A stretch of 60,352 nucleotides of DNA, the filler included, from Nitrospinae bacterium RIFCSPLOWO2_12_FULL_45_22 (lineage in GTDB: Bacteria; 2-12-FULL-45-22), in assembly GCA_001803565.1 (NCBI GenBank). It is 8 parts of 8 records of this genome, joined end to end, with 100 filler letters (N's around TTAATTAATTAA, not from the genome) between each part and the next. Parts side by side here need not be neighbours in the genome. Positions count along the whole stretch, not along the records: positions 33,858 to 38,956 come from MHDQ01000188.1; 7 more parts are not named here. One strand, given 5' to 3'. A program made the translations under genes and the position numbers. Every line of letters starts with the position of its first letter. Position 1 is the first letter of the stretch. Under the pieces are notes generated by a model. The model saw nothing but the letters and a program-made list of their open reading frames with translations. It was not told the DNA's origin and searched no databases. Positions 6,447 to 58,504 of this stretch are shown here, one piece after another.

Positions 6447-6548
6447 NNNNNNNNNNNNNNNNNNNNNNNNNNNNNNNNNNNNNNNNNNNNTTAATTAATT
6501 AANNNNNNNNNNNNNNNNNNNNNNNNNNNNNNNNNNNNNNNNNNNNAT

Positions 6549-14477: not shown

Positions 14478-14577
14478 NNNNNNNNNNNNNNNNNNNNNNN
14501 NNNNNNNNNNNNNNNNNNNNNTTAATTAATTAANNNNNNNNNNNNNNNNNNNNNNNNNNNNNNNNNNNNNNNNNNNN

Positions 14578-18500: not shown

Positions 18501-19301
18501 TGGGGCAGAGGCCGGAGGTGTGGTCTGGAGCTTCATCACGCAGACTCCCCCAAGCCAGGCTCCCAATACTCCCTCGGGTCTTAGCGTTACCATTAAAGGC
18601 CGCACCGTTTTTATCCAATGGCAAGCAAATAAGGAGACAGATATAGATCATTACAATATCTATGTAGGGTATGCCTCTAAAAACTATGATATAGAAGGAA
18701 GCCCGTTTAATATAGACAATGTTACTTGGCTCACTGTCCCTGATGTCCCGGATGGTACTTATTATATGGCTCTTAGTGCGGTAAATAGTGCTGGCCTGGA
18801 GAGTAGCTTATCGGAAGAGATAAAGGTAGTAGTAGGTGCTAAGCCGATCATTACTATAAGCAGCAATAAGAGTAGCTATTCCCCCGGGGATACCCTTACC
18901 CTTTCGTTTAGTATCAGCAACCCTACCGCTACTACTCAGGTAGTGGATGTTTTTCTTGGTATTATCGCACCCAATGGTAATATCTATTTTTTCGACTCCT
19001 CTCCCTTTCAAAGAAATCTGATATTAGCCAATGCTAATGACCCAAGAACCTTTACCCCAGCNNNNNNNNNNNNNNNNNNNNNNNNNNNNNNNNNNNCTTT
19101 ACCCCAGCTACTACCTCCTTGGAACTCAGTCCAGGATATGCTTTCCCCTTGACCCCATTCTTTTCTGTAACCTTACCTACAGGCTTAGCTGAGGGTAGTT
19201 ATCAAGCCTTTGCTGCCTTAGCCGAACCTGGCTCTGTTCAGTCAGGTTCTCCTGAGATAATGGGGGATATCAGTATCATTTCCTTCTCCTATTCTCCTTA
19301 A
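15508..19301 (+). CDS. Large secreted beta-propeller-repeat / FN3 protein with the conserved C-terminal module
   Basis: Signal-like AIIGALILVPLLYSAAQA; many SLALDxxxxPHISY...LKYAxFDGNSW repeats; three YYW(K/R)V.AxD Ig/FN3 units; the frame break at 19062-19096 is an assembly gap with duplicated flanks; exact start uncertain. Confidence 0.85.
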
Positions 19302-28595: not shown

Positions 28596-28695
28596 NNNNN
28601 NNNNNNNNNNNNNNNNNNNNNNNNNNNNNNNNNNNNNNNTTAATTAATTAANNNNNNNNNNNNNNNNNNNNNNNNNNNNNNNNNNNNNNNNNNNN

Positions 28696-33757: not shown

Positions 33758-33960
33758 NNNNNNNNNNNNNNNNNNNNNNNNNNNNNNNNNNNNNNNNNNN
33801 NTTAATTAATTAANNNNNNNNNNNNNNNNNNNNNNNNNNNNNNNNNNNNNNNNNNNNGATGATTTTCTGGGTAATTTTTATTAGACATGTAGCCTCCTCA
33901 ATACTAATGATTTTATATCAAATTTTTACGTGAGTAAAGCAGATAGGCAGTTGAGCTAAT

Positions 33961-34503
33961 TTATCCCTTCAGTTGTTTCTTTATCTTTTCCCATTCCTCT
34001 AAAACATCCCATTCTTTGGTCCAAAAGTCTAAATATTCCTCCTCAGGGATCAATCCGAGCCTTCTTATCCTTTCAATAATAGAATCTATATCCCAGAGGT
34101 CTTTTTGCCGATGGGCGATTAGCTTATGAATCAACAGATCCTCCAAAGAGATCACAGGAACCTTTATCCCTTCCACTTCTTCCCAGGTCTTCCTTTTAAC
34201 CACTAGATGTTGGTAAGGGATCTTGCATATAATCAGGTGGATAGGTATTGATCCTTTATCACATAAGAGCATATCAGGATCAGATTCGGGAATAAGTTTT
34301 ATCTTAAATCCATTCCTCTCTAGAATCTTTATTAGATCTTGGGTTGAGATGGTTTCCAGGATAACCAGGATGTCTAAGTCTGCTGTGAATCGTGGCTCCA
34401 TCCGGTAAAAGTTTGCAGCAAATGCCCCGATTATAGCATAATCTATTCCATCCGCTTCAAATATGTGATGGAGTCCTTTAATGATCTGTAGTATTGACTC
34501 CAT
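33961..34503 (-). CDS. Nucleotidyltransferase family protein
   Basis: YAIIGAFA...PRFTADLDILV, SLEDLLIHKLIAHRQKDLWD. Confidence 0.8.
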   Translation of the reverse strand: MESILQIIKGLHHIFEADGIDYAIIGAFAANFYRMEPRFTADLDILVILETISTQDLIKILERNGFKIKLIPESDPDMLLCDKGSIPIHLIICKIPYQHLVVKRKTWEEVEGIKVPVISLEDLLIHKLIAHRQKDLWDIDSIIERIRRLGLIPEEEYLDFWTKEWDVLEEWEKIKKQLKG

Positions 34504-34681
34504 GGAGCCTCCTCCATCGGTTGAAAAACTCCAAATGGGTATATATATCTGCTTCTTCTAGTTTTTTCATGATTTCAGAAGGGTTTATACCGTCTCTTTT
34601 CAGTCCGGCTTCAAAGAAGGCATTTCCTAATTCAAAGAGTTCCCAGGTAGTTTTTATAATTCCAGTGGAATTTGGTTCCAT
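34478..34681 (-). CDS. Small hypothetical protein, likely partner of the nucleotidyltransferase
   Basis: 67 aa, overlaps the NTase start in a TA-like arrangement. Confidence 0.55.
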   Translation of the reverse strand: MEPNSTGIIKTTWELFELGNAFFEAGLKRDGINPSEIMKKLEEADIYTHLEFFNRWRRLHGVNTTDH

Positions 34682-34722
34682 GAATTTAACCCGAAAAATG
34701 CGGATAAGCTCCTATCGGTAAG

Positions 34723-34854
34723 CTATAAATCTTTATTTTTTGTTAGCTTCTCTATGATTTTCTTGGCCAGGGTATGAAACTCCTTAGCTATTGAAAGGGC
34801 CACGAAGCCCTCACTAAGTCTCAGCCTGTACTTTGCTTCTTCGCTTGAATCCAT
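34723..34854 (-). pseudogene. HEPN-domain protein remnant (internal deletion)
   Basis: MDSSEEAKYRLRLSEGF joined to ALSIAKEFHTLAKKII; only first- and last-helix-like segments remain; lies directly after an MNT gene. Confidence 0.5.
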
Positions 34855-34859
34855 AAGCG

Positions 34860-35230
34860 CCACTCCAGTCTATGCCCCAGCCTGGTTCGGGTTGCTCTTC
34901 CCATATCCAGATGAAGGAGCCAAATCTTTTTATCCCGTTAGAGAAAGCCGCCGATTAAAATCGGCGGTTACTACCGCTTACTGTCTTGGCATATAAAGAG
35001 ACTTGAAAAGGGAGTTCTTTAGGGATCATCTTCCTCAAGAAGATCTGCCTCTCAAAGAGGTGCTCGGGGAGGTCTTGTGCCAGGATAAAGATATCCCCAT
35101 CGCTCCTCCCTGATCCCTCGCCTCTGGCCCGGGAGCCAAACAGGATGAGGCAGATAAGCCCTTCTCCTAATAGTGCAAGAAAGGCCTTTATTAACGGTTC
35201 AAAGATTGAGTTAATGGCTTCCCTTTCCAT
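34860..35230 (-). pseudogene. Minimal nucleotidyltransferase (MNT), apparently disrupted
   Basis: LILFGSRARG...SDGDIF motif; stops at 34955, while a W-rich tail (IWIWEEQPEPGWGIDW) continues in another frame. Confidence 0.65.
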
Positions 35231-35254
35231 ATTCTATGGTGAAAATGTCTTATG

Positions 35255-37753
35255 TTAAAAATTCTCTTTGTATAGTTGCTTATCGAACTCTCCATATTGA
35301 TAGATATCTACTCCATATATGCATATCTCCCATTTATCAGTCTTCAAAACCTGTTTACAAGACAAAATCTCCTTTTTAATCTCTCGGATAATATCATTTT
35401 TAATAATCTCCTGGGTATCAGGCGGATTAGGTGGGTCCCATTTAACATCCTTCCGAAGCTCAATGGCTATCCTGAATCTAAATAGCAAAGGAATGCTCAA
35501 TTCGACATCAATCTTCTTACTATTTATTGGGTTAACCAACCGGAAAAATACGGCATTGACCCGGTTATGTAAATCAAAGTGTCTTTCCTGGATCATCTTG
35601 AATATGATCTTGTTGCAGCAAGAAAGCCATTCTGTAAGAATGAGATAATATTGTTTTTCTTTTCCGTTGGCTTTATTCTCTTCAACCCATACCCTCTGAA
35701 CCACACCAAGAAGGGCTGACTCGAGATCTCTCAAGCCACTTTCCATCTTTTTCTTATTCCCATAGTCAAAGATTAAGTTAATTTCTCTAAACTTATTGAA
35801 ATTCTTATCCTCCATTTTTATCCAGGGAAGGATACGGTAATCCAAAATATCCTTTACTTCTTTTCTTCTTTGGCTGGTTTTATTAATACAATCTGAAATC
35901 CTCCCACCCTTATTCTTTTTAAGCCCTTCATAAATATGCCATATGCCATCGAACCACTTCTTTAAAGCCACCCAGTTCATCAGATCTTTAGAATCCATAT
36001 GTTGAATAGAATATTGCATCATAGAAGACAACCTCTGGAGCGTTTTCATTTCAGTGTCGATCTCTCGTTCAGTTAATTCTATCCGCCTCCGCCGGTATTC
36101 TTCATCTATCACCCGTTCTCTCTGGTTGTCACAGGCATCAATAATTCGCTGAAGTGCGGTAATCAGCTCCATCCTAAGGTATTGTCCTGAGTTAATTAGA
36201 AATTGATTATTTAGTTCCTTAATGGGATGGTCTATCTCTTTCCAGTGATAGAATCTTTGGGGCAATTCAGAGGTCTTAATCAGGGGCATCTTTCTGCGGT
36301 GGTAGCGATAGGCAGCGATGATGGCATTAATATATGGCTCTTTATTGTTGCTTATATCTTTACCACTAAATCCTATTGTCTCCGTCTTTTCTCCCTTCTT
36401 AACCTTTTCCAAGTCTCCCATTACTGCATAATAGGCAAGCTCGTGATGTAGATCCCGATTAAAGGAAGGAAATGAGGTAATATCTACTTTTTTTGTCTTT
36501 CTAGTGTCATCTTCATTCCACTCAAAGTTGATTTCCCTACCCGAATGCCCAATGTCATGAATCCATAAGGTGTAAAGGAGGACATAAATCTCCTCCGGAG
36601 ACAGAAAGTCTTTAAAGGGATATTCTTTAGCCTGATTTCTATTCACTTCAAAAGTTTGCATGGGCTTTATTAGCTGAACAGCCATCTCAAGGAGCCGCTG
36701 GCAGTGTCCTCTAGCATGATCCACAGTCTCAGGGATGTTATCACCAAGCCAGATATACTGGGTATCAGCAAATCTTTTCTCAAGATCTTCTTTTAGTGGA
36801 TGACCCTCAGGGAATAGGGTTAGTGCCACTGCCCCACTTCCAAATCGGGTCAGTTTTGTTCTTGATTCCTCCCATCGCTTCTCAAGAATATCTTTAATAG
36901 GTAAGGCTGTATATCTTTTCTGCGATGGGTCTTCTATAAAGAGGTGCTGTAGTCTCAGGGGCAGGGACTCCAGCAACCCTTTTGCTTTGTCCTTATCTAT
37001 ATGAGGTAGGGCATAGATAATAGAACGGTATTCATTTCGGCCAATAATATCAAAATCCACAGGGAGTAATGGCAAGTCTATAATATTTGGTGATTGCTCA
37101 TATAGATATTTTATCTTCACGCCCTCGTAACACATCCCTATGATGGAGGTATAAGGGATGAGACCTTTGTAGCCCCCAGTAATATTGATGATGAATTCGT
37201 GGCCTTTGTGTTCTTCCTTTTCCAAGTAGAAAGTGATAGAAGAGATGAGATTCTGGATACCTTCGGTTTGGAATCTATCAGCTTTCTTTACCTCAATCCC
37301 TTTTAAGAGTCCACCGCAAGGATGTTCTTCCATACAGTTTCCCAAGGAAGATTGGGTAATATAATTTTTCAGTACGAGAAAACAGAAGGCCCCTTCAGGG
37401 GTATCAGAAAAGAGTAGGACAATTTTATCCTGGTTAACTTTAGAACACCCGATCTTCCAGAGGCTGGCTACCTCAGCAGGGGCAAAAAGGCGGTGATTTT
37501 CGATTGTTGAGTTCAGTTTAGCTTTCAATAGACTTACAACTTCATTTACTTTACCCGAGTAGGAGTCCTGAAAATTCTTTAATGCCAGTTCAGTAGGCCA
37601 ATTCGTAAACGGGTTTTTTAAGTATTTTGCAATATCTTTTCCTCTGGAGTATAAAGGGTTAGGTTCATTATCAATATGCTCGCTTACTAATTTCTCCAGG
37701 AGGGATGTACCTACTGTGGTAAAGATAAGTTTTGGAGGTATGTCCATATCCAT
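35255..37753 (-). CDS. CRISPR-associated CARF (APE2256/Crn1-like) fused to an HD phosphohydrolase domain
   Basis: CARF: TTVGTSLL, AEVASL, SDTPEG, NITGGYKGLIPY, YLYE, LPLLP. HD: ETVDHARGH, WIHDIGH, HH, YHR, IIDACD. 7 bp downstream of a RAMP gene. Confidence 0.85.
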   Translation of the reverse strand: MDMDIPPKLIFTTVGTSLLEKLVSEHIDNEPNPLYSRGKDIAKYLKNPFTNWPTELALKNFQDSYSGKVNEVVSLLKAKLNSTIENHRLFAPAEVASLWKIGCSKVNQDKIVLLFSDTPEGAFCFLVLKNYITQSSLGNCMEEHPCGGLLKGIEVKKADRFQTEGIQNLISSITFYLEKEEHKGHEFIINITGGYKGLIPYTSIIGMCYEGVKIKYLYEQSPNIIDLPLLPVDFDIIGRNEYRSIIYALPHIDKDKAKGLLESLPLRLQHLFIEDPSQKRYTALPIKDILEKRWEESRTKLTRFGSGAVALTLFPEGHPLKEDLEKRFADTQYIWLGDNIPETVDHARGHCQRLLEMAVQLIKPMQTFEVNRNQAKEYPFKDFLSPEEIYVLLYTLWIHDIGHSGREINFEWNEDDTRKTKKVDITSFPSFNRDLHHELAYYAVMGDLEKVKKGEKTETIGFSGKDISNNKEPYINAIIAAYRYHRRKMPLIKTSELPQRFYHWKEIDHPIKELNNQFLINSGQYLRMELITALQRIIDACDNQRERVIDEEYRRRRIELTEREIDTEMKTLQRLSSMMQYSIQHMDSKDLMNWVALKKWFDGIWHIYEGLKKNKGGRISDCINKTSQRRKEVKDILDYRILPWIKMEDKNFNKFREINLIFDYGNKKKMESGLRDLESALLGVVQRVWVEENKANGKEKQYYLILTEWLSCCNKIIFKMIQERHFDLHNRVNAVFFRLVNPINSKKIDVELSIPLLFRFRIAIELRKDVKWDPPNPPDTQEIIKNDIIREIKKEILSCKQVLKTDKWEICIYGVDIYQYGEFDKQLYKENF

Positions 37754-37760
37754 CCTTCCT

Positions 37761-38920
37761 TTATTCGTGCAGTTTGTAGGTATTAGTCTCTACTTCCTGA
37801 GCAGTAGGCAGGGGGTGTTCACAAATGGGTTTTCCATAGTGTGAGCAAGTTTTTATCGTGCAATTGGCGGTATAATTAAAAAAGCTGGGGCGATCCGGAT
37901 ACTTGATGGGAAGTCCATGATTTATAGGGGGATAGTTCAGGATAGCCCTCAAATCTTCCCAGGCATCAGTATGAAATGAATTTTTGGCATTCTTAAGCTT
38001 ATTTATGAAGTAACTAACCTCTGTGCTATCTGCTCCCTTTTTGCCTTTGTATCTATCGAACATATTGATATTTTTAAAACCCTTTTCATCAAACTCTATC
38101 TTTATTGTCCCAAGGCCCAGTGGCTTTCCCAGTCCAATCTTATGGCACATGCTGTCATCAAGCCTCAGGGATAAAAGGAGAAGGCCAAGTTCTTCATCAG
38201 AGAGGTTTTCATAGGTTACAGGAAAAGAAAGATTACCAGAGACGAGGAGTTCAATAGCATCGCAACCGGGAAAATACTGGGTCTTTATGGCTTCGTTATC
38301 TGGAGGTCTATGGTAATAGAATTTTCTTCCTCGTAAATTCCCATTATGATTGAGGTAAAAGCTTTCGTGGTGGGGCTTGGGGCTGGACAGGGCATGGTCT
38401 CTCAAGAACCTTCGCTCAAGGCTTCCATTCTCTATCTTTATATCGGAAAAAGAGACCTTTCCCCCAAAGCCTTCCTGTCCTTCCTGTCCTTCACCAACGG
38501 ATTTATTAGATGTCCCAAAGAGTCTACAGCAAATGCAGAGACCCTTTTTTTCATCTCTTAGATAGCATCCATCATTTTTGCTTTCATCTGGAATACCATA
38601 AGAGAAATTAACCTTATACCTTCTTCTTTCCCTTTCTATTTCCCAGCTATTCCCACTGGGTGAATTATAGTTTGTTTTCTGAACATTCTGACCAACATTT
38701 TGCCACTGGGAATTAGGGATAGCGTTAAAGGCGGCTATAAGAGTTCTGTTTTGGATATCATCTCTGTATTCCGCTGAAAACATGGAGAAGCAAGCACTGG
38801 AAATGGCCTCAGCTATGGATCTGATCATGCCTTTTACAGTAGAGCCAGGTATGAAAGGGAGACCATCATGGTTCCTGCTGAACCTCTTGTAAAAGACAAA
38901 TTGGGGGGTTGGGTTTGGGG
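37761..38920 (-). CDS. cas7: Type III CRISPR RAMP protein (Cas7 with insertion, III-D/TIGR03986-like), 5' truncated
   Basis: PFIPGSTVKGMIRSIAEAISSAC, LCICCRLFG, GKVSFSD, LRGRKFYYH, G-rich loop HKIGLGKPLGLG. Confidence 0.9.
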
Positions 38921-39138
38921 TTTACAAGAGGTTCAGCAGGAACCATGATGGTCTCCNNNNNNNNNNNNNNNNNNNNNNNNNNNNNNNNNNNNNNNNNNNN
39001 TTAATTAATTAANNNNNNNNNNNNNNNNNNNNNNNNNNNNNNNNNNNNNNNNNNNNTCATTCTATTAACGGTTTCAACAACAATTTCAAACAGTATATGT
39101 GAAAAACTATGGTGTAGCATCATCGGCTCCTTTTGGAA

Positions 39139-50035: not shown

Positions 50036-50639
50036 NNNNNNNNNNNNNNNNNNNNNNNNNNNNNNNNNNNNNNNNNNNNTTAATTAATTAANNNNNNNNN
50101 NNNNNNNNNNNNNNNNNNNNNNNNNNNNNNNNNNNTATATCTTGCCCTTTTTTCTCGTTAAGCGGCTCTATGTGACTTTTGCATAGAATTTTGAGAGATA
50201 GTGTAACCATCCCTTTGTCCCTGTAAGTTATCATATAATTCCCTTTAAGCCAACAATGGACTTTTGTTATTTTCAAACCCTTTGCGCGCATTCCTTCCTT
50301 AAAAGGCTCTCCTCTCAATAATTTTCTTATTGCAGACTTCTACGAATAGCCAATAAAAAGGGCTATTTTTTGGACATTTTACCGAGACCAAATATGCCCT
50401 CCAGGATATTATTAGGCTACTAATATATATTAAATTATATATAATTTAGCTATAATATCTAGCCTTTACCAATTTCGGAATGTCCAATTATGCGTAAATT
50501 ATTGATGCTATTGACTTTTCTTTATATGGTCGAAGAAGTCTGAACTTTGACTCGAAATTTCTATTTATCGAGCCAGAAGAAGTAATTAAGAGATAGATAG
50601 GATAGTAAGAGCTAAGGGCTCATAGACTATCTCACCCTT

Positions 50640-54547: not shown

Positions 54548-55182
54548 GTCGAGTAGACCGGTTTCTCCCGATGCTACAGGTTGAGGTTTGTTTTCTCCGT
54601 TTTCTGCCTGGTTTCTCGGCAGTGCCACAATATTTCAACCATACATCAGTTGGCCCCAACCCCTCACAGAACCGGACTTGCGGGATTACCGCATCCGGCT
54701 CTTCAAGCAGGCTCACATCGTAGCCGCGTAGATCCAACCATAGCCCTTCAAGATTCTGGGTTTGGGTAAGGGATAGCGAAGCAGTAAAGCTTCAAATTCT
54801 GCCCAGTTGAAGCTTTTCCTTTGACTGCGCCGATTGAGCCACTTGAACCACATCCTCTTTATCGCATAGACAAATTTGTTCAAGGTTGCGTAGTTCCCCG
54901 CAAATCCAAAATAGTTGTAGTACCCCTTGAGGACTCGGCATATATGCTGGTATAGTTCCCGGAATGGAAGCACATTGCGCAATTTCCTGAGTTTATCATT
55001 CAAGTCGACCAGTTTTCTTCTCATACGCTTACCAATCGTCTTGCGACCCAGTCTTATCCCGCCTCTTCGGCTCCGGGTCATATAGTGAGTAAACCCAAGA
55101 AAGTCTAATGTGCTCGGCTTACCCCCTGTAAGCTTGCTCCTCCGGTATGCATCCTTGCCAAACTATATCAGTCTGCTCTTCT
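54548..55182 (-). mobile_element. Group II intron, 3' part (domains V and VI)
   Basis: DV GAGCCGGATGCGGTAATCCCGCAAGTCCGGTTC (54669-54701), then TGTGAGGGG; ends ...CTACTCGAC. Confidence 0.9.
54713..55182 (-). CDS. Group II intron RT/maturase, C-terminal fragment
   Basis: EKSRLI*FG (in-frame stop), DFLGFTH, LKGYYNYFG, WLNRRSQRKSFNW, PLPKPRI. Confidence 0.9.
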
Positions 55183-55282
55183 NNNNNNNNNNNNNNNNNN
55201 NNNNNNNNNNNNNNNNNNNNNNNNNNTTAATTAATTAANNNNNNNNNNNNNNNNNNNNNNNNNNNNNNNNNNNNNNNNNNNN

Positions 55283-55972: not shown

Positions 55973-58504
55973 TTAGAATAATCTGCCTTGATTTGCATTT
56001 ACTTTTTTATTCTCTTTTTGTTCGGCTTTCTGGTTTAAGATTTGATAGATATCAACCCTGGTTTTTTCTTTCACGTAGGCATTGCGTAATCGGTCAAAGA
56101 AAATCAGCTTCCAGTTTCCCTTTTCAAAATGCTCTTTAAAAAGGGGCGAAGTGAGCTTGTTTTTAAATTGGGCCTCTCTTTCCTCAGGCAGAACCATAAA
56201 TTTGTCGACCTGCTCTTCAACGTTTGATCCACGCATTAAGGCGCTAGTCATACTGGTTGTTGCCTCTATTTCGAAAAGGGCAATAATCTTATTCCCAGTC
56301 ACCCAGAGGAGGTCTATATTTTCCACCACATCAAAATTGGTAGCATTGGTAACCTTTAGCTCCTTAAGGGACATATATCCAGATAAGGTCTTACCCTGGG
56401 CAACGAGTCCACCATCTCTTTCGTGCTGCTCTCTTTTCCCAATCCAGATACCATATCCCTGATCTTTTCCTATTACTGCCAAAATAGCCAGAACCTCGCT
56501 GTGCTGATTAACCCGCCGCTTTATCTCGGGCTTTAATAGCCAGTATCCACCAGCGACCTGCCGGGCATAGATTTTCAGGGCATCCATGATGTTAGTACTA
56601 TCAGAGGTAAGGGAATTGGGGAACTCGGTACTTACCGCATCCCATACCTCGGTAAAGGTCACTTTGGCCTTCTGGTATAGCTTTCGACAGACGGTCTGTT
56701 CAACCCTTTCAGTCAGAGGTATCTCGTTCAGCCGGGGCACAATAGAGGTATCCTTGAACCACCACAGCTTGCCTTCGGCCCCACCTACCTTTGCTGGAAG
56801 GAGAATAAATTCTTTATCAAGATGCTTTTTCAGCACTGTATTTATATCCATCCCGGTATGGAGGCTGGAGAAGAAACCGTGTTTGGCCAGGACTGGGTCT
56901 ATATAGTTGATGATGATGGTATAGGGGGTCGGTTCCGCCCTTTCTGCCAATAGCGCAATCGTGGTTTCTACTACTATCTTCTCAAACCTGACTTCATCTA
57001 TCTCTTCTGGTAGTGTAGCAGTGACCTTTGCTGGTGGTTTATGAAACCGGAGATAAAAATCCCCCTGGGCAGAGCCAAAGGGCTGGAGCAAGGATTTAGC
57101 GGAGGGTCTGGCCAGCTCTTGGTGATGTATCTTTTGGAACTCAAACCCAGCAAAGACACCTGCCCGTATAGTTGCATTACGGACCTTGAAGGTAGGGTTA
57201 TGGAAGGTCATGGTAAGATAATGATCGGGCTTCAAAACTTTAAACATCTGCTGGAAGCTTGATGAGATAAGCGAATAATAGACATCAAAGTCCTTATGTT
57301 GTCTCTCGTTTCTTATGATCTCATGGGCCATTATTTTTTCTAGATACCCTTGATCCATCTTGAGCCACGCTATCCACATATAAGTAAGCTCGCCATATTG
57401 GATAGAGGCATCATAGGGGGGGTCGGTAAAGATGTAGTCAACCTTTCCCTCCGGCATTTTATCCATCAGGCCCAGGGCATCCCCCTGATAAATAAAGATA
57501 TCCGCCTTTCCTGAGAGCAGTTGATCTATAGATTTAGCAAATCTCTTATTCGCGAAAAGAGCATTTGATTCAGTCTTGGCTTTGATAAGCCCCTGACGTT
57601 CATTGATCGCGCTTTCAAAACGATTCCAAACATTTGATTCCATAAATTCATTAGCTGACCAGTAGCTGTGTTCGTTCCATACTGAGCTAAACGGTCGGGT
57701 TGGTCTGACTGGCATCATTTTTGTGCAAAGATGTACCAGGGACGAGAATCCAATCTTCAAAAAGTCCCTCAAGTCCTTTGTGGGCTCTTTTTCTATCGCA
57801 GCCATTAGCCAGGCCAGGGCCTGAAGGTTCCTCTTGGTGAAGAGCTGGTCTATGGATTCGTATTGCTGCTTTTCCTTAAAGGCCATTCCATTGGGATAGT
57901 AGAGGGGATTGGTGGGGTACCACTCCCTTATCTTTTTGGATTCAATACTTTTGAGGAGATCACGGTCATATTTGCTAAGCTTACAGTTGGATTCTTGCCT
58001 ATCACCACAGTGCGGACAGGATTGGTAGCGGATTTCCTGGTAGTCCCCATCCTGCCAAACCGCACAATCAATGACAATATCTTCTTTGCAGTTGCGGCAA
58101 TGGGTGGTATATAACCCCTCGATCTTTTTCTTCACCTGTTTCTCTACTCGCTTAAATGCCTGGTAGAGTTCTACTTCATTAACGGGCTTAATAGTAAGAC
58201 GAATGATCTCGGTAGCGATGGGGTTTAGGTCACAGGCAATGACTCTCAGATTATTTTTCAGGGCTTCCATAGCGGTAATCCCACTACCGGCAAAGGGATC
58301 AAAGACGATCCCACCTTCTGGACAGTATGCCCTTATGAATTCACCCACCACATTCCAGGTCTTCCTTGACCAAAACTTATGCCAGAGATAGATGGGGGTA
58401 TGGGCTAAGGGAGGGATTTGGCGGCTTATATGGTCAATTTCTAGTTTTGATGGCTTTGAAACGGTGACCGGGGTAATCTCTATTCGGGATTTACTCTTTT
58501 TCAA
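55973..58504 (-). CDS. Amino-DNA methyltransferase with Zn ribbon fused to a C-terminal restriction-endonuclease-like domain
   Basis: HKFWSRK, FDPFAGSG, CRNC...CPHC, FTDPPY; C-terminal IDLLW...FEIEATT PD-(D/E)xK-like motif. Confidence 0.85.
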   Translation of the reverse strand: MKKSKSRIEITPVTVSKPSKLEIDHISRQIPPLAHTPIYLWHKFWSRKTWNVVGEFIRAYCPEGGIVFDPFAGSGITAMEALKNNLRVIACDLNPIATEIIRLTIKPVNEVELYQAFKRVEKQVKKKIEGLYTTHCRNCKEDIVIDCAVWQDGDYQEIRYQSCPHCGDRQESNCKLSKYDRDLLKSIESKKIREWYPTNPLYYPNGMAFKEKQQYESIDQLFTKRNLQALAWLMAAIEKEPTKDLRDFLKIGFSSLVHLCTKMMPVRPTRPFSSVWNEHSYWSANEFMESNVWNRFESAINERQGLIKAKTESNALFANKRFAKSIDQLLSGKADIFIYQGDALGLMDKMPEGKVDYIFTDPPYDASIQYGELTYMWIAWLKMDQGYLEKIMAHEIIRNERQHKDFDVYYSLISSSFQQMFKVLKPDHYLTMTFHNPTFKVRNATIRAGVFAGFEFQKIHHQELARPSAKSLLQPFGSAQGDFYLRFHKPPAKVTATLPEEIDEVRFEKIVVETTIALLAERAEPTPYTIIINYIDPVLAKHGFFSSLHTGMDINTVLKKHLDKEFILLPAKVGGAEGKLWWFKDTSIVPRLNEIPLTERVEQTVCRKLYQKAKVTFTEVWDAVSTEFPNSLTSDSTNIMDALKIYARQVAGGYWLLKPEIKRRVNQHSEVLAILAVIGKDQGYGIWIGKREQHERDGGLVAQGKTLSGYMSLKELKVTNATNFDVVENIDLLWVTGNKIIALFEIEATTSMTSALMRGSNVEEQVDKFMVLPEEREAQFKNKLTSPLFKEHFEKGNWKLIFFDRLRNAYVKEKTRVDIYQILNQKAEQKENKKVNANQGRLF

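What the first reader, a model, noticed from the sequence alone, without database searches (positions are those of the whole stretch)
35255..38920. Type III CRISPR locus with a CARF-HD phosphohydrolase fusion effector
Seen: a Cas7/RAMP gene is followed 7 bp later by an 832-aa protein. Its N-terminal ~230 aa carry APE2256/Crn1-type CARF motifs (VGTS, AE..SL, SDT.EG, TGGYK, YLYE). Its central part has a complete HD metal-binding set (DH..GH, HDIGH, HH, YH, DACD), then a long helical insert and an HF..H motif resembling HD-CE domains. Known: type III complexes make cyclic oligoadenylates that activate CARF effectors, and Crn1-like CARFs bind and can degrade cA4. The characterised effectors I know of are mainly nucleases, deaminases, NADases and membrane proteins. 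I do not know of a characterised CARF-HD enzyme, although such fusions may appear in computational surveys. Inference: a cOA-activated phosphohydrolase that depletes (d)NTPs or other nucleotides to arrest infection, possibly self-limiting through CARF ring-nuclease activity. An alternative is a two-stage signal-destroying enzyme.
Basis: partly seen in the sequence, partly recalled or inferred. Interest (0 to 1): 0.87.

Follow-up and report, generated by a model that had tools for sequence, protein, structure and literature searches.

The report
CARF-HD effector on truncated CRISPR fragment
This gene encodes a sensor domain for the type III CRISPR alarm molecule fused to a metal-dependent phosphohydrolase; such fusions are already listed in computational surveys, but no published test of their activity was found.

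Summary
Window 35255-37753(-) encodes an 832-aa protein with a Cas_APE2256 CARF domain (Pfam E 1.3e-21) and an HD-CE domain (E 1.7e-11). A TIGR03986-type RAMP gene ends 7 nt upstream.

The window is a chain of contigs joined by N/TTAATTAATTAA linkers. The finding lies on a 5,099-nt contig (33858-38956) whose end cuts the RAMP gene. The missing cas10 and CRISPR array are therefore uninformative, and the xseAB and kinase "neighbours" are artefacts.

In relatives this gene is the last gene of type III-D operons (cas10-csx7-csx10-cas7x2-csx19-RAMP-CARF-HD). Of 99 non-redundant family loci, 58 carry a type III marker and 32 a fused beta/beta' RNA-polymerase-like gene.

The fusion is not new. PADLOC holds the profiles "CARF7--CARF_HD" and "CARF7--CARF_CYTH_HD", and a 2023 survey lists "RNAPol + CARF". 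Ten literature searches found no experimental study.

Best reading: a cA4-sensing, probably self-limiting effector. Its HD domain is a phosphohydrolase. Nucleotides are slightly favoured over nucleic acids as substrate, and this is not shown. It is a new member of a known, uncharacterised kind, of moderate interest.

The parts
35255..37753 (-). CARF-HD gene, 832 aa (whole ORF including the stop codon)
37034..37753 (-). residues 1-240: CARF domain (Cas_APE2256 / CARF7). Ser17 sits in GTS and Lys196 in GGYK.
   Evidence: Pfam E 1.3e-21. PDB: Cami1 E 1.5e-19, and Sis0811 with K169 aligned to K196. Foldseek: Cami1 E 2e-9. Predicted homodimer 0.79 vs best control 0.01.
36752..37033 (-). residues 241-334: helix-helix-helix-strand-strand linker module (winged-helix-like) between CARF and HD
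   Evidence: secondary structure of model m3b674320d45e. The Cami1 alignment runs to residue 286. The winged-helix label is my reading and was not searched separately.
36110..36751 (-). residues 335-548: HD-CE phosphohydrolase core. H346, H350, H399-D400, H403, R433, H436, H485, D539 and R547 are invariant in 48 of 48 sequences.
   Evidence: Pfam HD-CE. Alignment A2. VIA-align: GppA/PPX C-terminal domain Z 12.1 (rmsd 3.6, 185 aligned), PDEs Z 9-10.
35564..36109 (-). residues 549-730: long helical insertion (five helices). It ends in the near-invariant K719-Q722-H725-H729 motif.
   Evidence: pLDDT is low in its middle (about residues 607-662 of P0001; one search reports 308-363 in HD-model numbering, which starts at P0001 residue 300).
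35258..35563 (-). residues 731-832: C-terminal alpha/beta domain (4 strands and 1 helix), no family assigned
   Evidence: It was not folded or searched alone.
37761..38921 (-). 3' part of a TIGR03986-type type III-D RAMP (Cas7-like) gene. The frame is open to 38921 and the 5' part is missing beyond the contig end.
   Evidence: NCBIfam TIGR03986 120.6 bits on model 333-557/568. PADLOC Csm3/Cas7_IIId. tblastn: residues 73-368 of the L002 RAMP align to 38858-37875 at 37% identity. Stop-to-stop ORF.
38858..38956 (.). 43-nt inverted repeat (38858-38900 and 38914-38956, 93% complementary) at the contig end. This is most likely a hairpin assembly artefact, so sequence beyond about 38907 is not trustworthy.
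   Evidence: The only Rfam matches here are sub-threshold miRNA hairpin models.
38957..39056 (.). artificial linker (44 N + TTAATTAATTAA + 44 N) joining unrelated contigs
33758..33857 (.). artificial linker at the other end of the 5,099-nt contig
   Evidence: L081 has length 5099.
34955..35230 (-). 91-aa MntA-like nucleotidyltransferase (short), directly downstream of CARF-HD
   Evidence: Pfam Polbeta/NTP_transf_2. NCBIfam MntA 26.4 bits, cutoff 60. PADLOC PDC-S09.
33961..34503 (-). 180-aa nucleotidyltransferase-fold protein (DUF2204 / AbiEii-like)
   Evidence: Pfam

Best explanation
The protein is an ancillary effector of a type III-D CRISPR-Cas system and belongs to the catalogued 'CARF7 CARF_HD' group. 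Shown: domain identities, motif conservation and genomic linkage. Inferred: a Cas10 with an intact GGDD cyclase site and no evident HD nuclease makes cyclic tetra-adenylate (cA4) when the crRNA complex meets target RNA. The N-terminal CARF domains of a homodimer bind cA4. Binding is passed through the winged-helix-like linker to the HD-CE domain, a metal-dependent phosphohydrolase (ligands H350, H399-D400, H436, H485, D539). That domain hydrolyses an abundant cellular substrate and arrests growth. The CARF keeps the Ser (S17) and Lys (K196) that ring nucleases of this clade use, so the signal is probably degraded slowly and the response limits itself. Favoured substrate, with low confidence: free nucleotides (NTP/dNTP, triphosphohydrolase-like) rather than DNA or RNA. 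In this window the rest of the operon is simply missing beyond the end of a 5.1-kb contig.
For: - **CARF:** Pfam 77.3 bits. PDB profile hits Cami1 at E 2e-27, plus Sis0811 and Sso1393. Foldseek E 2e-9 to 5e-6. K196 aligns with Sis0811 K169, the residue mutated in entry 7pqa. G15, S17, T192, G194 and K196 are invariant in 20 of 20 sequences. The homodimer model scores 0.79 vs best control 0.01. That mark was reached by 20 of 30 proteins solved as pairs and 1 of 23 solved as single chains. The runs share at least 75% of contacts and partner pLDDT is at least 82. Related dimers are solved, so the pass may be from memory.
- **HD:** Pfam HD-CE 44.8 bits. 17 columns are invariant in 48 of 48 sequences. 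HD-fold matches reach Z 12.1 (GppA, rmsd 3.6, 185 aligned) and Z 9-10 for PDEs.
- **Linkage:** the gene is last in cas10-csx7-csx10-cas7x2-csx19-RAMP operons in L001, L002, L003, L014, L043 and L077, among others. 58 of 99 non-redundant loci carry a type III marker. Of the 61 loci with at least 8 kb of flank, 57 carry a type III marker or an RpoBC-like gene. The RAMP lies directly upstream in 20 of 78 clusters. CRISPR-like arrays occur in 31 of 111 loci. Cas10 has GGDD/GGED in 8 of 10 checked, and 9 of 10 show no 'HD' dipeptide in the first 120 aa, which is a crude test.
- **Effector rather than accessory:** in L001, L002 and L014, NCBIfam named no other CARF or SAVED gene among the ORFs scanned.
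- **Nucleotide substrate:** the best non-CARF PDB sequence match is the dNTP triphosphohydrolase EF1143 (E 0.0036, about 59 positions). The top Foldseek hit is E. coli dGTPase (E 0.08). No Cas3 or Cas10 HD appears among the 50 rows shown. A sister clade carries a CYTH (triphosphate-tunnel) domain in the same protein, by the PADLOC profile name. dCTP-deaminase-like genes adjoin the gene in 4 of 111 loci.
Against: - No activity, ligand or substrate was tested.
- The nucleotide-substrate evidence is weak. The EF1143 match covers only the H...HD motif region. Foldseek found nothing at E <= 0.001. Z values of 8-12 for helical folds can be generic, as the tool's own note says.
- A 2025 classification speaks of 'DNases of the ... 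HD families' among cOA effectors.
- HD-CE is fused elsewhere to GHKL ATPases. By my recollection, such fusions usually sit in DNA-targeting conflict systems.
- L008 and L028 Cas10 lack a GGDD-like motif.
- cas10 and an array cannot be shown for this organism: the contig ends and no genome is held.
- The CARF ligand (cA4 rather than cA3 or cA6) is inferred only from likeness to Cami1 and Sis0811.
- 26 of 99 loci show neither marker, though 20 of those have under 5 kb of flank.
Confidence: 0.4

Rival explanations
1. The architecture and cA4 activation are the same, but the HD-CE domain is a nuclease. On signalling it degrades ssDNA, dsDNA or RNA non-specifically, as Can1, Can2, Card1 or Csm6 do with other folds.
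For: Makarova et al. 2025 list 'DNases of the PD-(D/E)xK and HD families' among cOA-activated effectors (PMC12669027, section 8 read). HD nucleases are typical of CRISPR systems (Cas3, Cas10; my knowledge). YhaM, an HD exonuclease, matches at Z 9.2 (rmsd 4.4, 156 aligned). HD-CE is fused to HATPase_c_3 (GHKL) ATPases and methyltransferases in other proteins. The long helical insertion and the C-terminal alpha/beta domain could hold nucleic acid (inference).
Against: No Cas3 or Cas10 HD appears in the 50 rows shown by either VIA-align search, which is not an exclusion. Pfam gives only HD-CE and no nuclease-type HD family at E <= 0.01. CYTH fusions in the sister clade and dCTP-deaminase neighbours point to nucleotide chemistry. 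No nucleic-acid-binding domain was detected.
Confidence: 0.3
2. The protein is a dedicated signal-removing enzyme, not a killing effector. The CARF binds and cleaves cA4 to A2>P, and the HD domain acts as a phosphodiesterase on cA4, on linear products or on 2',3'-cyclic phosphate ends.
For: The CARF is of the Crn1/Sis0811 ring-nuclease clade, with Ser17 and Lys196 invariant. The HD fold matches cyclic-nucleotide phosphodiesterases at Z 9-10 (e.g. PDE10A Z 10.3, rmsd 5.3, 218 aligned) and PDEB1 by sequence at E 0.012. Some loci carry a second CARF7 protein that could be the true effector or another ring nuclease: L043:11624-12772, L063:18250-19335 and L009:3057-4169.
Against: In L001, L002 and L014 no other CARF or SAVED gene was named, although Cas10 keeps GGDD and shows no obvious HD nuclease. 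A system with only an off-switch would then have no output. An 830-aa protein with a large insertion and an extra domain is elaborate for a ring nuclease, since known ones are small (PMC12409355, passages). Contigs often end right after the gene, so effectors beyond the end cannot be excluded.
Confidence: 0.15
3. The protein is part of a transcription-linked module rather than a stand-alone effector. It would act together with the fused beta/beta' RNA-polymerase-like protein and the RtcR-like AAA+ protein seen beside its relatives, for example by shaping the nucleotide pool or RNA 5' ends for that polymerase.
For: An RpoBC-like gene occurs in 32 of 99 family loci and is directly adjacent in 18. 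All 10 checked keep the catalytic NADFDGD motif. A close relative of the window protein, L003, has a partial RpoB-like gene 7 kb downstream in the same locus. Altae-Tran et al. [quoted passage not shown]
Against: Nothing of this module is on the window's contig. In the window's 32-row clade most contexts are plain III-D operons: 18 D against 4 DR. The link is one of position only.
Confidence: 0.1

Closest known systems
CARF7 'CARF_HD' and 'CARF_CYTH_HD' groups (PADLOC-DB profiles PDLC01933 and PDLC01929). From memory, these profile names come from the 2020 CARF classification of Makarova et al., which I could not open.
   Same: Same architecture: a CARF7 domain followed by HD-CE plus a C-terminal extension. 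P0001 matches PDLC01933 over residues 66-736 (E 6.6e-39) and PDLC01929 over 13-573 (E 3.6e-42). Both groups are linked to type III loci.
   Different: The window protein is a divergent subfamily. It scores 132-143 bits, against 1103 bits for a Synergistota member and 425-756 bits for Thermotogota members. It lacks the N-terminal extension of the CYTH-named forms. Its clade sits at the end of III-D operons rather than beside the RNAP-like gene.
Cami1 (CARF-RelE; PDB 8phb, 8phj)
   Same: Closest solved CARF domain: E 1.5e-19 over residues 92-286 and Foldseek E 2e-9. The PDB title says 8phj holds cA4, which suggests the same ligand.
   Different: Cami1's effector part is a RelE-type ribosome-dependent RNase (recalled). 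Here it is an HD-CE domain with a helical insertion, and there is no RelE match.
Crn1-type ring nucleases (Sis0811, PDB 7pq2; Sso1393, PDB 3qyf)
   Same: Same CARF clade. The GTS serine and the GG.K lysine are conserved, and K196 aligns with Sis0811 K169.
   Different: Those are proteins of about 270-320 aa without an enzyme domain. P0001 scores 14.8 bits on the NCBIfam ring-nuclease equivalog, whose cutoff is 600.
CARF-HAD phosphatases (Chp; PMC12715507, passages read)
   Same: A CARF sensor fused to a phosphohydrolase. That paper reports depletion of nucleotides (ATP, IMP) as the immune output, which is the mode proposed here.
   Different: The catalytic fold is unrelated (HAD versus HD). 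Chp works with type III-A, whereas this gene sits in III-D operons. Activity is shown for Chp and not for this protein.
SAMHD1 / dGTPase / EF1143 dNTP triphosphohydrolases
   Same: HD superfamily, with similar H...HD(I/V)GH motifs. EF1143 matches at E 0.0036, dGTPase at Foldseek E 0.08 and SAMHD1 at Z 8.3 (rmsd 4.8, 206 aligned).
   Different: The similarity is confined to the motif region. The family-specific insertion, the C-terminal domain and the K719/Q722/H725/H729 motif have no counterpart. Membership is not established.

Membership tests
CARF superfamily, Cas_APE2256 / CARF7 clade | Profile match above the curated threshold | tested here: met
   PF09651 at 77.3 bits, cutoff 24.8. TIGR02619 scores 28.8, below its 37.45 cutoff.
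CARF superfamily, Cas_APE2256 / CARF7 clade | Rossmann-like CARF fold resembling solved members | tested here: met
   Foldseek: Cami1 E 2.1e-9, Sis0811 E 1.5e-6, Sso1393 E 2.6e-6. The model has pLDDT 75.
CARF superfamily, Cas_APE2256 / CARF7 clade | Conserved ligand and ring-nuclease residues (Ser of GTS, Lys of GG.K) | tested here: met
   S17 and K196 are invariant in 20 of 20 sequences. K196 aligns with Sis0811 K169. The S17 to S12 equivalence is inferred from the profile alignment range and was not printed.
CARF superfamily, Cas_APE2256 / CARF7 clade | Homodimer forming the cOA pocket | tested here: met
   Complex prediction scores 0.79 vs best control 0.01. The mark was reached by 20 of 30 solved pairs and 1 of 23 single chains. 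The interface includes residues 191-201 and 225-239. Like dimers are solved, so the pass may be from memory.
CARF superfamily, Cas_APE2256 / CARF7 clade | Binds (and cleaves) cyclic oligoadenylate | not testable with these tools
   Needs biochemistry.
HD superfamily, HD-CE family (PF24391) | Profile match above the curated threshold | tested here: met
   44.8 bits, cutoff 27, residues 341-555.
HD superfamily, HD-CE family (PF24391) | H...HD...D metal-ligand set present and conserved | tested here: met
   H350, H399-D400 and D539, plus H346, H403, H436 and H485, are invariant in 48 of 48 sequences.
HD superfamily, HD-CE family (PF24391) | All-helical HD fold | tested here: met
   VIA-align: GppA/PPX C-terminal domain Z 12.1-12.3 (rmsd 3.6, 185-192 aligned), PDEs Z 9-10, SAMHD1 Z 8.3. 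Foldseek alone found nothing at E <= 0.001.
HD superfamily, HD-CE family (PF24391) | Metal-dependent phosphoester hydrolysis | not testable with these tools
   Needs an assay.
Type III-D CRISPR-Cas locus | cas10 in the same locus | tested here: inconclusive
   None on the 5.1-kb contig. The contig end cuts the operon and no genome is held. Relatives have cas10 3.6-7.7 kb upstream.
Type III-D CRISPR-Cas locus | III-D-type Cas7 / TIGR03986 RAMP adjacent | tested here: met
   Partial gene at 37761-38921. TIGR03986 scores 120.6 bits, below its cutoff because only model positions 333-557 remain. It is 37% identical to the L002 RAMP. The same adjacency occurs in 20 of 78 clusters.
Type III-D CRISPR-Cas locus | CRISPR array | tested here: inconclusive
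   None in the window, but only 1.4 kb lies downstream of the gene on its contig. Arrays occur in 31 of 111 related loci.
PADLOC CARF7--CARF_HD | Match to the profile across both the CARF and HD parts | tested here: met
   E 6.6e-39, residues 66-736 on model 49-614 of 670. The score is far lower than for Synergistota members.
SAMHD1 / dGTPase-type dNTP triphosphohydrolases | Family-level sequence or fold match beyond the generic HD motifs | tested here: inconclusive
   EF1143 E 0.0036 over about 59 profile positions. dGTPase Foldseek E 0.08, prob 0.41. SAMHD1 Z 8.3.
Crn1 stand-alone ring nuclease (NF040951) | Equivalog-level match | tested here: not met
   14.8 bits against a cutoff of 600. 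The protein is three times longer and carries an HD domain.

The most novel reading that the evidence does not exclude
The HD-CE domain is a cA4-gated nucleoside-triphosphate triphosphohydrolase, or another enzyme acting on triphosphate groups. This would give type III CRISPR a nucleotide-pool-collapsing output with a fold not yet seen among its effectors. In sister clades the same enzyme is joined to a CYTH triphosphatase, which could destroy the released triphosphate. It also sits beside a dedicated, catalytically intact fused beta/beta' RNA polymerase and a CARF-like AAA+ activator. That would form a CRISPR-triggered alternative transcription and nucleotide-control module.
Probability: 0.25. 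Interest if true: 0.78.

Novelty: new member of a known kind. Interest (0 to 1): 0.5.

Why it matters
CARF effectors studied so far act by RNA or DNA cleavage, membrane depolarisation, ATP deamination, NAD+ cleavage and HAD-type nucleotide dephosphorylation (PMC12715507, discussion passages). The CARF-HD group is sizeable: 354 representatives at 50% identity reach E <= 1e-30. It is often the only visible signalling output of cyclase-competent III-D systems, yet no published activity was found. Learning its substrate would fill a gap in the map of type III outputs and could give another cOA-switched enzyme for diagnostics. This window adds a divergent, intact member but no new context, because its contig is cut.

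Tried and rejected
- **Cas genes elsewhere in the window:** I scanned 42 ORFs of the window with Pfam and NCBIfam and ran tblastn with 23 III-D proteins from L001-L003. Only the RAMP fragment matched. This is uninformative, because the window pieces are unrelated contigs.
- **Whole genome and earlier findings:** neither was available.
- **'Orphan RAMP + CARF-HD module':** this was my first reading. I dropped it once the linkers and the contig end were seen.
- **Full-length Foldseek search:** only CARF matches appeared. I therefore folded the HD part alone.
- **HD-part searches:** Foldseek gave no hit at E <= 0.001. VIA-align gave generic HD folds. No Cas3 or Cas10 HD was among the 50 rows shown, which does not exclude them.
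- **PDB sequence search with the HD profile:** only marginal hits.
- **Literature:**
  - 'HD-CE' as a whole word returned 19 papers. The 15 listed were all on unrelated subjects.
  - 'CARF-HD', 'HD-CARF', 'CARF HD', 'CARF and HD' and 'HD nuclease effector' showed 0 occurrences in all 20 of the 39 papers listed.
  - CARF with HD-domain terms for 2023 onward found no effector study.
  - The RNAP-like search terms gave 0 papers.
  - The 2020 CARF classification is not held.
  - Supplements are closed. Supplementary Table 2 and the data files of the 2025 classification, and Fig. 6 and its supplements in the 2023 survey, may name this family.
- **dCTP-deaminase association:** found in only 4 of 111 loci, too few to weigh much.
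- **Rfam on the contig:** only sub-threshold miRNA hairpin models on the artefactual palindrome.

Full report
**What is in the window.** The ORF at 35255-37753 on the minus strand encodes 832 aa. Pfam places a Cas_APE2256 CARF domain at residues 93-229 (E 1.3e-21, 77.3 bits, cutoff 24.8). It places an HD-CE domain (PF24391) at 341-555 (E 1.7e-11, 44.8 bits, cutoff 27). The ORF just upstream, 37761-38828(-), ends 7 nt before the CARF-HD start codon. It matches the TIGR03986 type III RAMP family, but only over model positions 333-557 of 568 and below the curated cutoff (120.6 against 161.35 bits). PADLOC calls it Csm3/Cas7_IIId.

**The window is a concatenation, and the locus is cut by a contig end.** Reading upstream of the RAMP gene showed a run of 44 N, the word TTAATTAATTAA and 44 N again. 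The same 100-nt linker occurs seven times in the window: at 6447-6546, 14478-14577, 28596-28695, 33758-33857, 38957-39056, 50036-50135 and 55183-55282. The finding therefore lies on a piece spanning 33858-38956. A metagenome scan returned exactly this piece as a separate 5,099-nt contig, 100% identical (L081).

The RAMP reading frame is open from its stop codon up to 38921. Residues 73-368 of a 388-aa relative align to 38858-37875. The gene thus runs off the contig, and the ATG at 38828 is not its true start. The last 43 nt of the contig (38914-38956) are an inverted copy of 38858-38900 at 93%. This is a hairpin of the kind assemblers leave at contig ends, and the only Rfam matches on the contig are sub-threshold miRNA hairpin models at this spot.

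Three consequences follow. DUF6680, xseB/xseA/folD and the histidine kinase/sigma-54 activator pair are not neighbours of the finding. The lack of cas10 and of a CRISPR array in the window says nothing. The true neighbours are only a short MntA-like nucleotidyltransferase (34955-35230) and a DUF2204/AbiEii-like nucleotidyltransferase-fold protein (33961-34503). No whole genome is held for this window.

**The family and its genomic setting.**
- A word-indexed search found 20 relatives, 19 with the same two Pfam domains, at 28-39% identity.
- An exhaustive profile search found 3,758 cluster representatives at E <= 0.001 and 354 at E <= 1e-30. Most of the 150 listed match over nearly the whole profile.
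- Scans of genome and metagenome contigs gave 160 loci.
- I sent 98 of the 101 ORFs called in 14 loci to NCBIfam. In L001, L002, L003 and L014 the CARF-HD gene is the last gene of a co-directional type III-D operon: cas10, csx7, csx10, a small gene, a double cas7, csx19 where recognised, the TIGR03986 RAMP, then CARF-HD.
- L004, L007 and L012 show the last genes of the same operon before their contigs end. L008, L010 and L028 also end a co-directional type III operon, but with other RAMPs (Csx7/Csm3/Cmr4-type) directly upstream; in L028 the TIGR03986 RAMP instead precedes cas10. L003 continues with cas6, an RT-Cas1 fusion, two cas2 genes and an array.
- With local HMMs built from these genes I scanned all 160 loci. 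111 loci hold an HD-CE hit, and they collapse to 99 clusters at 95% identity.
- Of the 99 clusters, 58 hold a type III marker (44 III-D-type, 17 a III-B-type cas10) and 32 an RpoB/RpoC-like gene. 17 hold both and 26 hold neither. 20 of those 26 have under 5 kb of flank in total.
- Of the 61 clusters with at least 8 kb of flank, 57 hold one or the other marker.
- The RAMP lies directly upstream on the same strand in 20 of the 78 clusters that have at least 600 nt upstream.
- CRISPR-like arrays are present in 31 of 111 loci.
- Cas10 carries GGDD or GGED in 8 of 10 proteins checked. In 9 of 10 there is no HD dipeptide in the first 120 residues, which is a crude test.
- A FastTree tree used 88 of the 99 clusters; the 11 rows under 560 aa were dropped. 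It places the window protein on a long branch inside a 32-row clade (local support 99) made mostly of III-D contexts, nearest to L003/L087 and L082-L084. The tool itself warns that long branches meet there.

**The CARF domain.** A profile of the family hits Cami1 (8phb/8phj, E 2e-27), Sis0811 (7pq2, E 1.4e-16) and Sso1393 (3qyf, E 5.9e-16). The full-length model has pLDDT 75.0 and pTM 0.73 and finds the same structures by Foldseek (E 2e-9 to 5e-6). In the pairwise alignment, K196 of the TGGYK motif falls on Sis0811 K169, the residue changed in entry 7pqa. G15, S17, T192, G194, K196, E219 and S221 are invariant in 20 of 20 sequences.

A homodimer of residues 1-300 was predicted with a score of 0.79 against 0.01 for the best of three controls. 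That mark was reached by 20 of 30 proteins solved as pairs and by 1 of 23 solved as single chains. The three runs share at least 75% of contacts and partner pLDDT is at least 82. The interface includes 191-201 and 225-239. Dimers of close relatives are solved, so this shows likeness rather than independent proof. Residues 241-334 form a helix-helix-helix-strand-strand module, which I read as winged-helix-like and did not search separately.

**The HD part.** In an alignment of 48 HD regions, 17 columns are invariant: G337, D338, I340, P341, E342, V344, H346, H350, H399, D400, G402, H403, R433, H436, H485, D539 and R547. Ten more are near-invariant: W335, P429, R486, D542, Q544, K719, Q722, H725, H729 and E795. 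This is a complete H...HD...H...H...D set.

The domain model has pLDDT 76.8 and pTM 0.82. It found nothing by Foldseek at E <= 0.001; the top hit was E. coli dGTPase at E 0.08 and prob 0.41. VIA-align gives these matches:
- the C-terminal HD-like domain of GppA/PPX: Z 12.1-12.3, rmsd 3.6, 185-192 aligned;
- class I cyclic-nucleotide phosphodiesterases: Z 9-10;
- YhaM: Z 9.2;
- Rel hydrolase: Z 8.5;
- SAMHD1: Z 8.3.

The tool warns that such Z values can be generic for helical proteins. By sequence, the best solved match outside the CARF is the dNTP triphosphohydrolase EF1143 (E 0.0036, about 59 positions around the H...HD motifs), followed by PDEB1 (E 0.012).

The fold is therefore HD superfamily, but the subfamily and the substrate are open. 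After the core comes a helical insertion of about 180 residues and a small alpha/beta domain; neither has an assigned family. In other proteins of the ESM Atlas, HD-CE is fused to GHKL ATPases, a methyltransferase and a phosphoribosyltransferase.

**Is it already known?** Yes, as a catalogue entry. PADLOC-DB holds profiles named CARF7--CARF_CYTH_HD and CARF7--CARF_HD. P0001 matches them at E 3.6e-42 and E 6.6e-39, the latter over residues 66-736. Synergistota members match CARF_HD at up to 1103 bits and Thermotogota members match CARF_CYTH_HD at 425-756 bits. The window's clade scores 93-171 bits, so it is a divergent subfamily.

From memory, these profile names derive from the 2020 CARF classification by Makarova and colleagues, which is not held here. 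The 2025 CRISPR classification (PMC12669027, section 8 read) lists 'DNases of the PD-(D/E)xK and HD families' among cOA-activated effectors. Altae-Tran et al. [quoted passage not shown] The legend of their figure defines CYTH, HD and FleQ.

I found no experimental paper. The search for 'CARF-HD', 'HD-CARF', 'CARF HD', 'CARF and HD' and 'HD nuclease effector' showed no occurrence of these phrases in the 20 of 39 papers listed, all of which matched another term. CARF combined with HD-domain terms from 2023 onward gave no effector study. The December 2025 CARF-HAD paper lists the known CARF outputs without an HD enzyme (PMC12715507, passages). Supplements are closed, so a family name or data hidden there cannot be excluded.

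**How it most likely works.** Shown: the architecture, the conservation of the sensor and catalytic residues, and the operon linkage to cyclase-type Cas10. Inferred: cA4 from Cas10 binds the CARF dimer and switches on the HD domain, and the conserved Ser17 and Lys196 later cleave cA4 and end the response.

For the substrate I slightly favour free nucleotides, for four reasons:
- the only sequence-level and top Foldseek similarities outside the CARF are to dNTP triphosphohydrolases;
- the sister clade carries a CYTH (triphosphate-tunnel) domain in the same chain, which would fit removal of released triphosphate;
- dCTP-deaminase-like genes adjoin the gene in 4 of 111 loci;
- no nuclease-type HD was seen among the matches.

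Each of these is weak. A cA4-activated nuclease is nearly as likely and is what the 2025 classification implies. A pure signal-degrading role is less likely, because in L001, L002 and L014 no other CARF or SAVED gene was named among the ORFs scanned although Cas10 keeps GGDD. Contig ends limit that argument.

**Side observation in relatives.** In Synergistota and Thermotogota loci the CARF-(CYTH)-HD gene lies beside three other genes:
- a 1,287-1,891-aa protein that matches both RpoB and RpoC models and carries Rpb2_3, Rpb2_6, Rpb1_2 and Rpb1_5 in one chain;
- an unknown protein of about 290 aa;
- an RtcR-like sigma-54-type AAA+ protein.

All 10 polymerase-like proteins checked keep the NADFDGD catalytic motif. 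L077 also has a CYTH-RpoA-like fusion. This matches the 'RNAPol + CARF' entry of the 2023 survey. Nothing of it lies on the window's contig.

**Verdict.** The 'locus' is a contig-end fragment. The protein is a divergent, intact member of a catalogued but experimentally uncharacterised effector group. Interest is moderate.

Noticed in passing
window 6447-6546, 14478-14577, 28596-28695, 33758-33857, 38957-39056, 50036-50135, 55183-55282 (plus a 35-N gap at 19062-19096): The window is a pseudomolecule: eight contig pieces joined by identical 100-nt linkers (44 N + TTAATTAATTAA + 44 N). Gene order across the linkers has no biological meaning, which affects any other finding in this window that relies on neighbourhood.
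   Followed up: yes
window 38858-38956: A 43-nt inverted repeat (93% complementary, 13-nt loop) sits exactly at a contig end and is most likely an assembly hairpin. It produces sub-threshold Rfam miRNA matches (MIR2587 and mir-24, below gathering scores).
   Followed up: yes
L018:11772-16385, L027:11649-16235, L053:1997-6436, L063:2655-6518, L077:13404-19079, L020:4690-9384(-): A fused beta/beta'-like RNA polymerase (1,287-1,891 aa) lies next to CARF-(CYTH)-HD genes in Synergistota and Thermotogota type III loci. It carries Rpb2 and Rpb1 domains in one chain, and NADFDGD is kept in 10 of 10 checked. It comes with an unknown ~290-aa gene and an RtcR-like AAA+ gene. It occurs in 32 of 99 family loci and appears to be the 'RNAPol + CARF (UAS-58)' of Altae-Tran et al. 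2023. I found no functional study.
   Followed up: partly
L077:12109-13428: A CYTH domain is fused to an RpoA-like (RNA_pol_A_bac / RNA_pol_L) protein. The gene lies between the CARF-HD gene and the fused beta/beta' gene, at the end of a III-D operon.
   Followed up: no
L005:636-1148, L012:5956-6525, L013:7582-8049, L118:3308-3562: dCTP-deaminase-family genes (TIGR02274) lie close to the CARF-HD gene in 4 of 111 loci. This may hint at nucleotide-pool defence, or it may be chance.
   Followed up: partly
window 33961-35230; L002:511-843 and 1637-1981; L014:93-530: MntA-like nucleotidyltransferase and HepT-like genes (toxin-antitoxin type) flank the type III-D / CARF-HD loci in the window and in two relatives. 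The window's 91-aa MntA-like ORF looks short, and small ORFs fill 34478-34863.
   Followed up: no
L009:4534-9073: Beside a CARF-HD gene and a second CARF7 protein lie a Ser/Thr kinase and an 864-aa fusion of FHA, group-II-intron-type reverse transcriptase and CRISPR-associated primase-polymerase. cas1 follows.
   Followed up: no
L001, L002, L014, L099, L104, L109 (CARF-HD gene ends 2-420 nt before the contig end): Many contigs stop shortly after the CARF-HD gene. This would fit a CRISPR array just downstream breaking the assemblies. Arrays are seen at that position in L004, L012 and L088.
   Followed up: partly
window 54713-55081 and 55973-58504 (other contig pieces): A group II intron maturase fragment, and an 843-aa protein with an N6/N4 DNA methylase domain. 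Both are unrelated to the finding.
   Followed up: no
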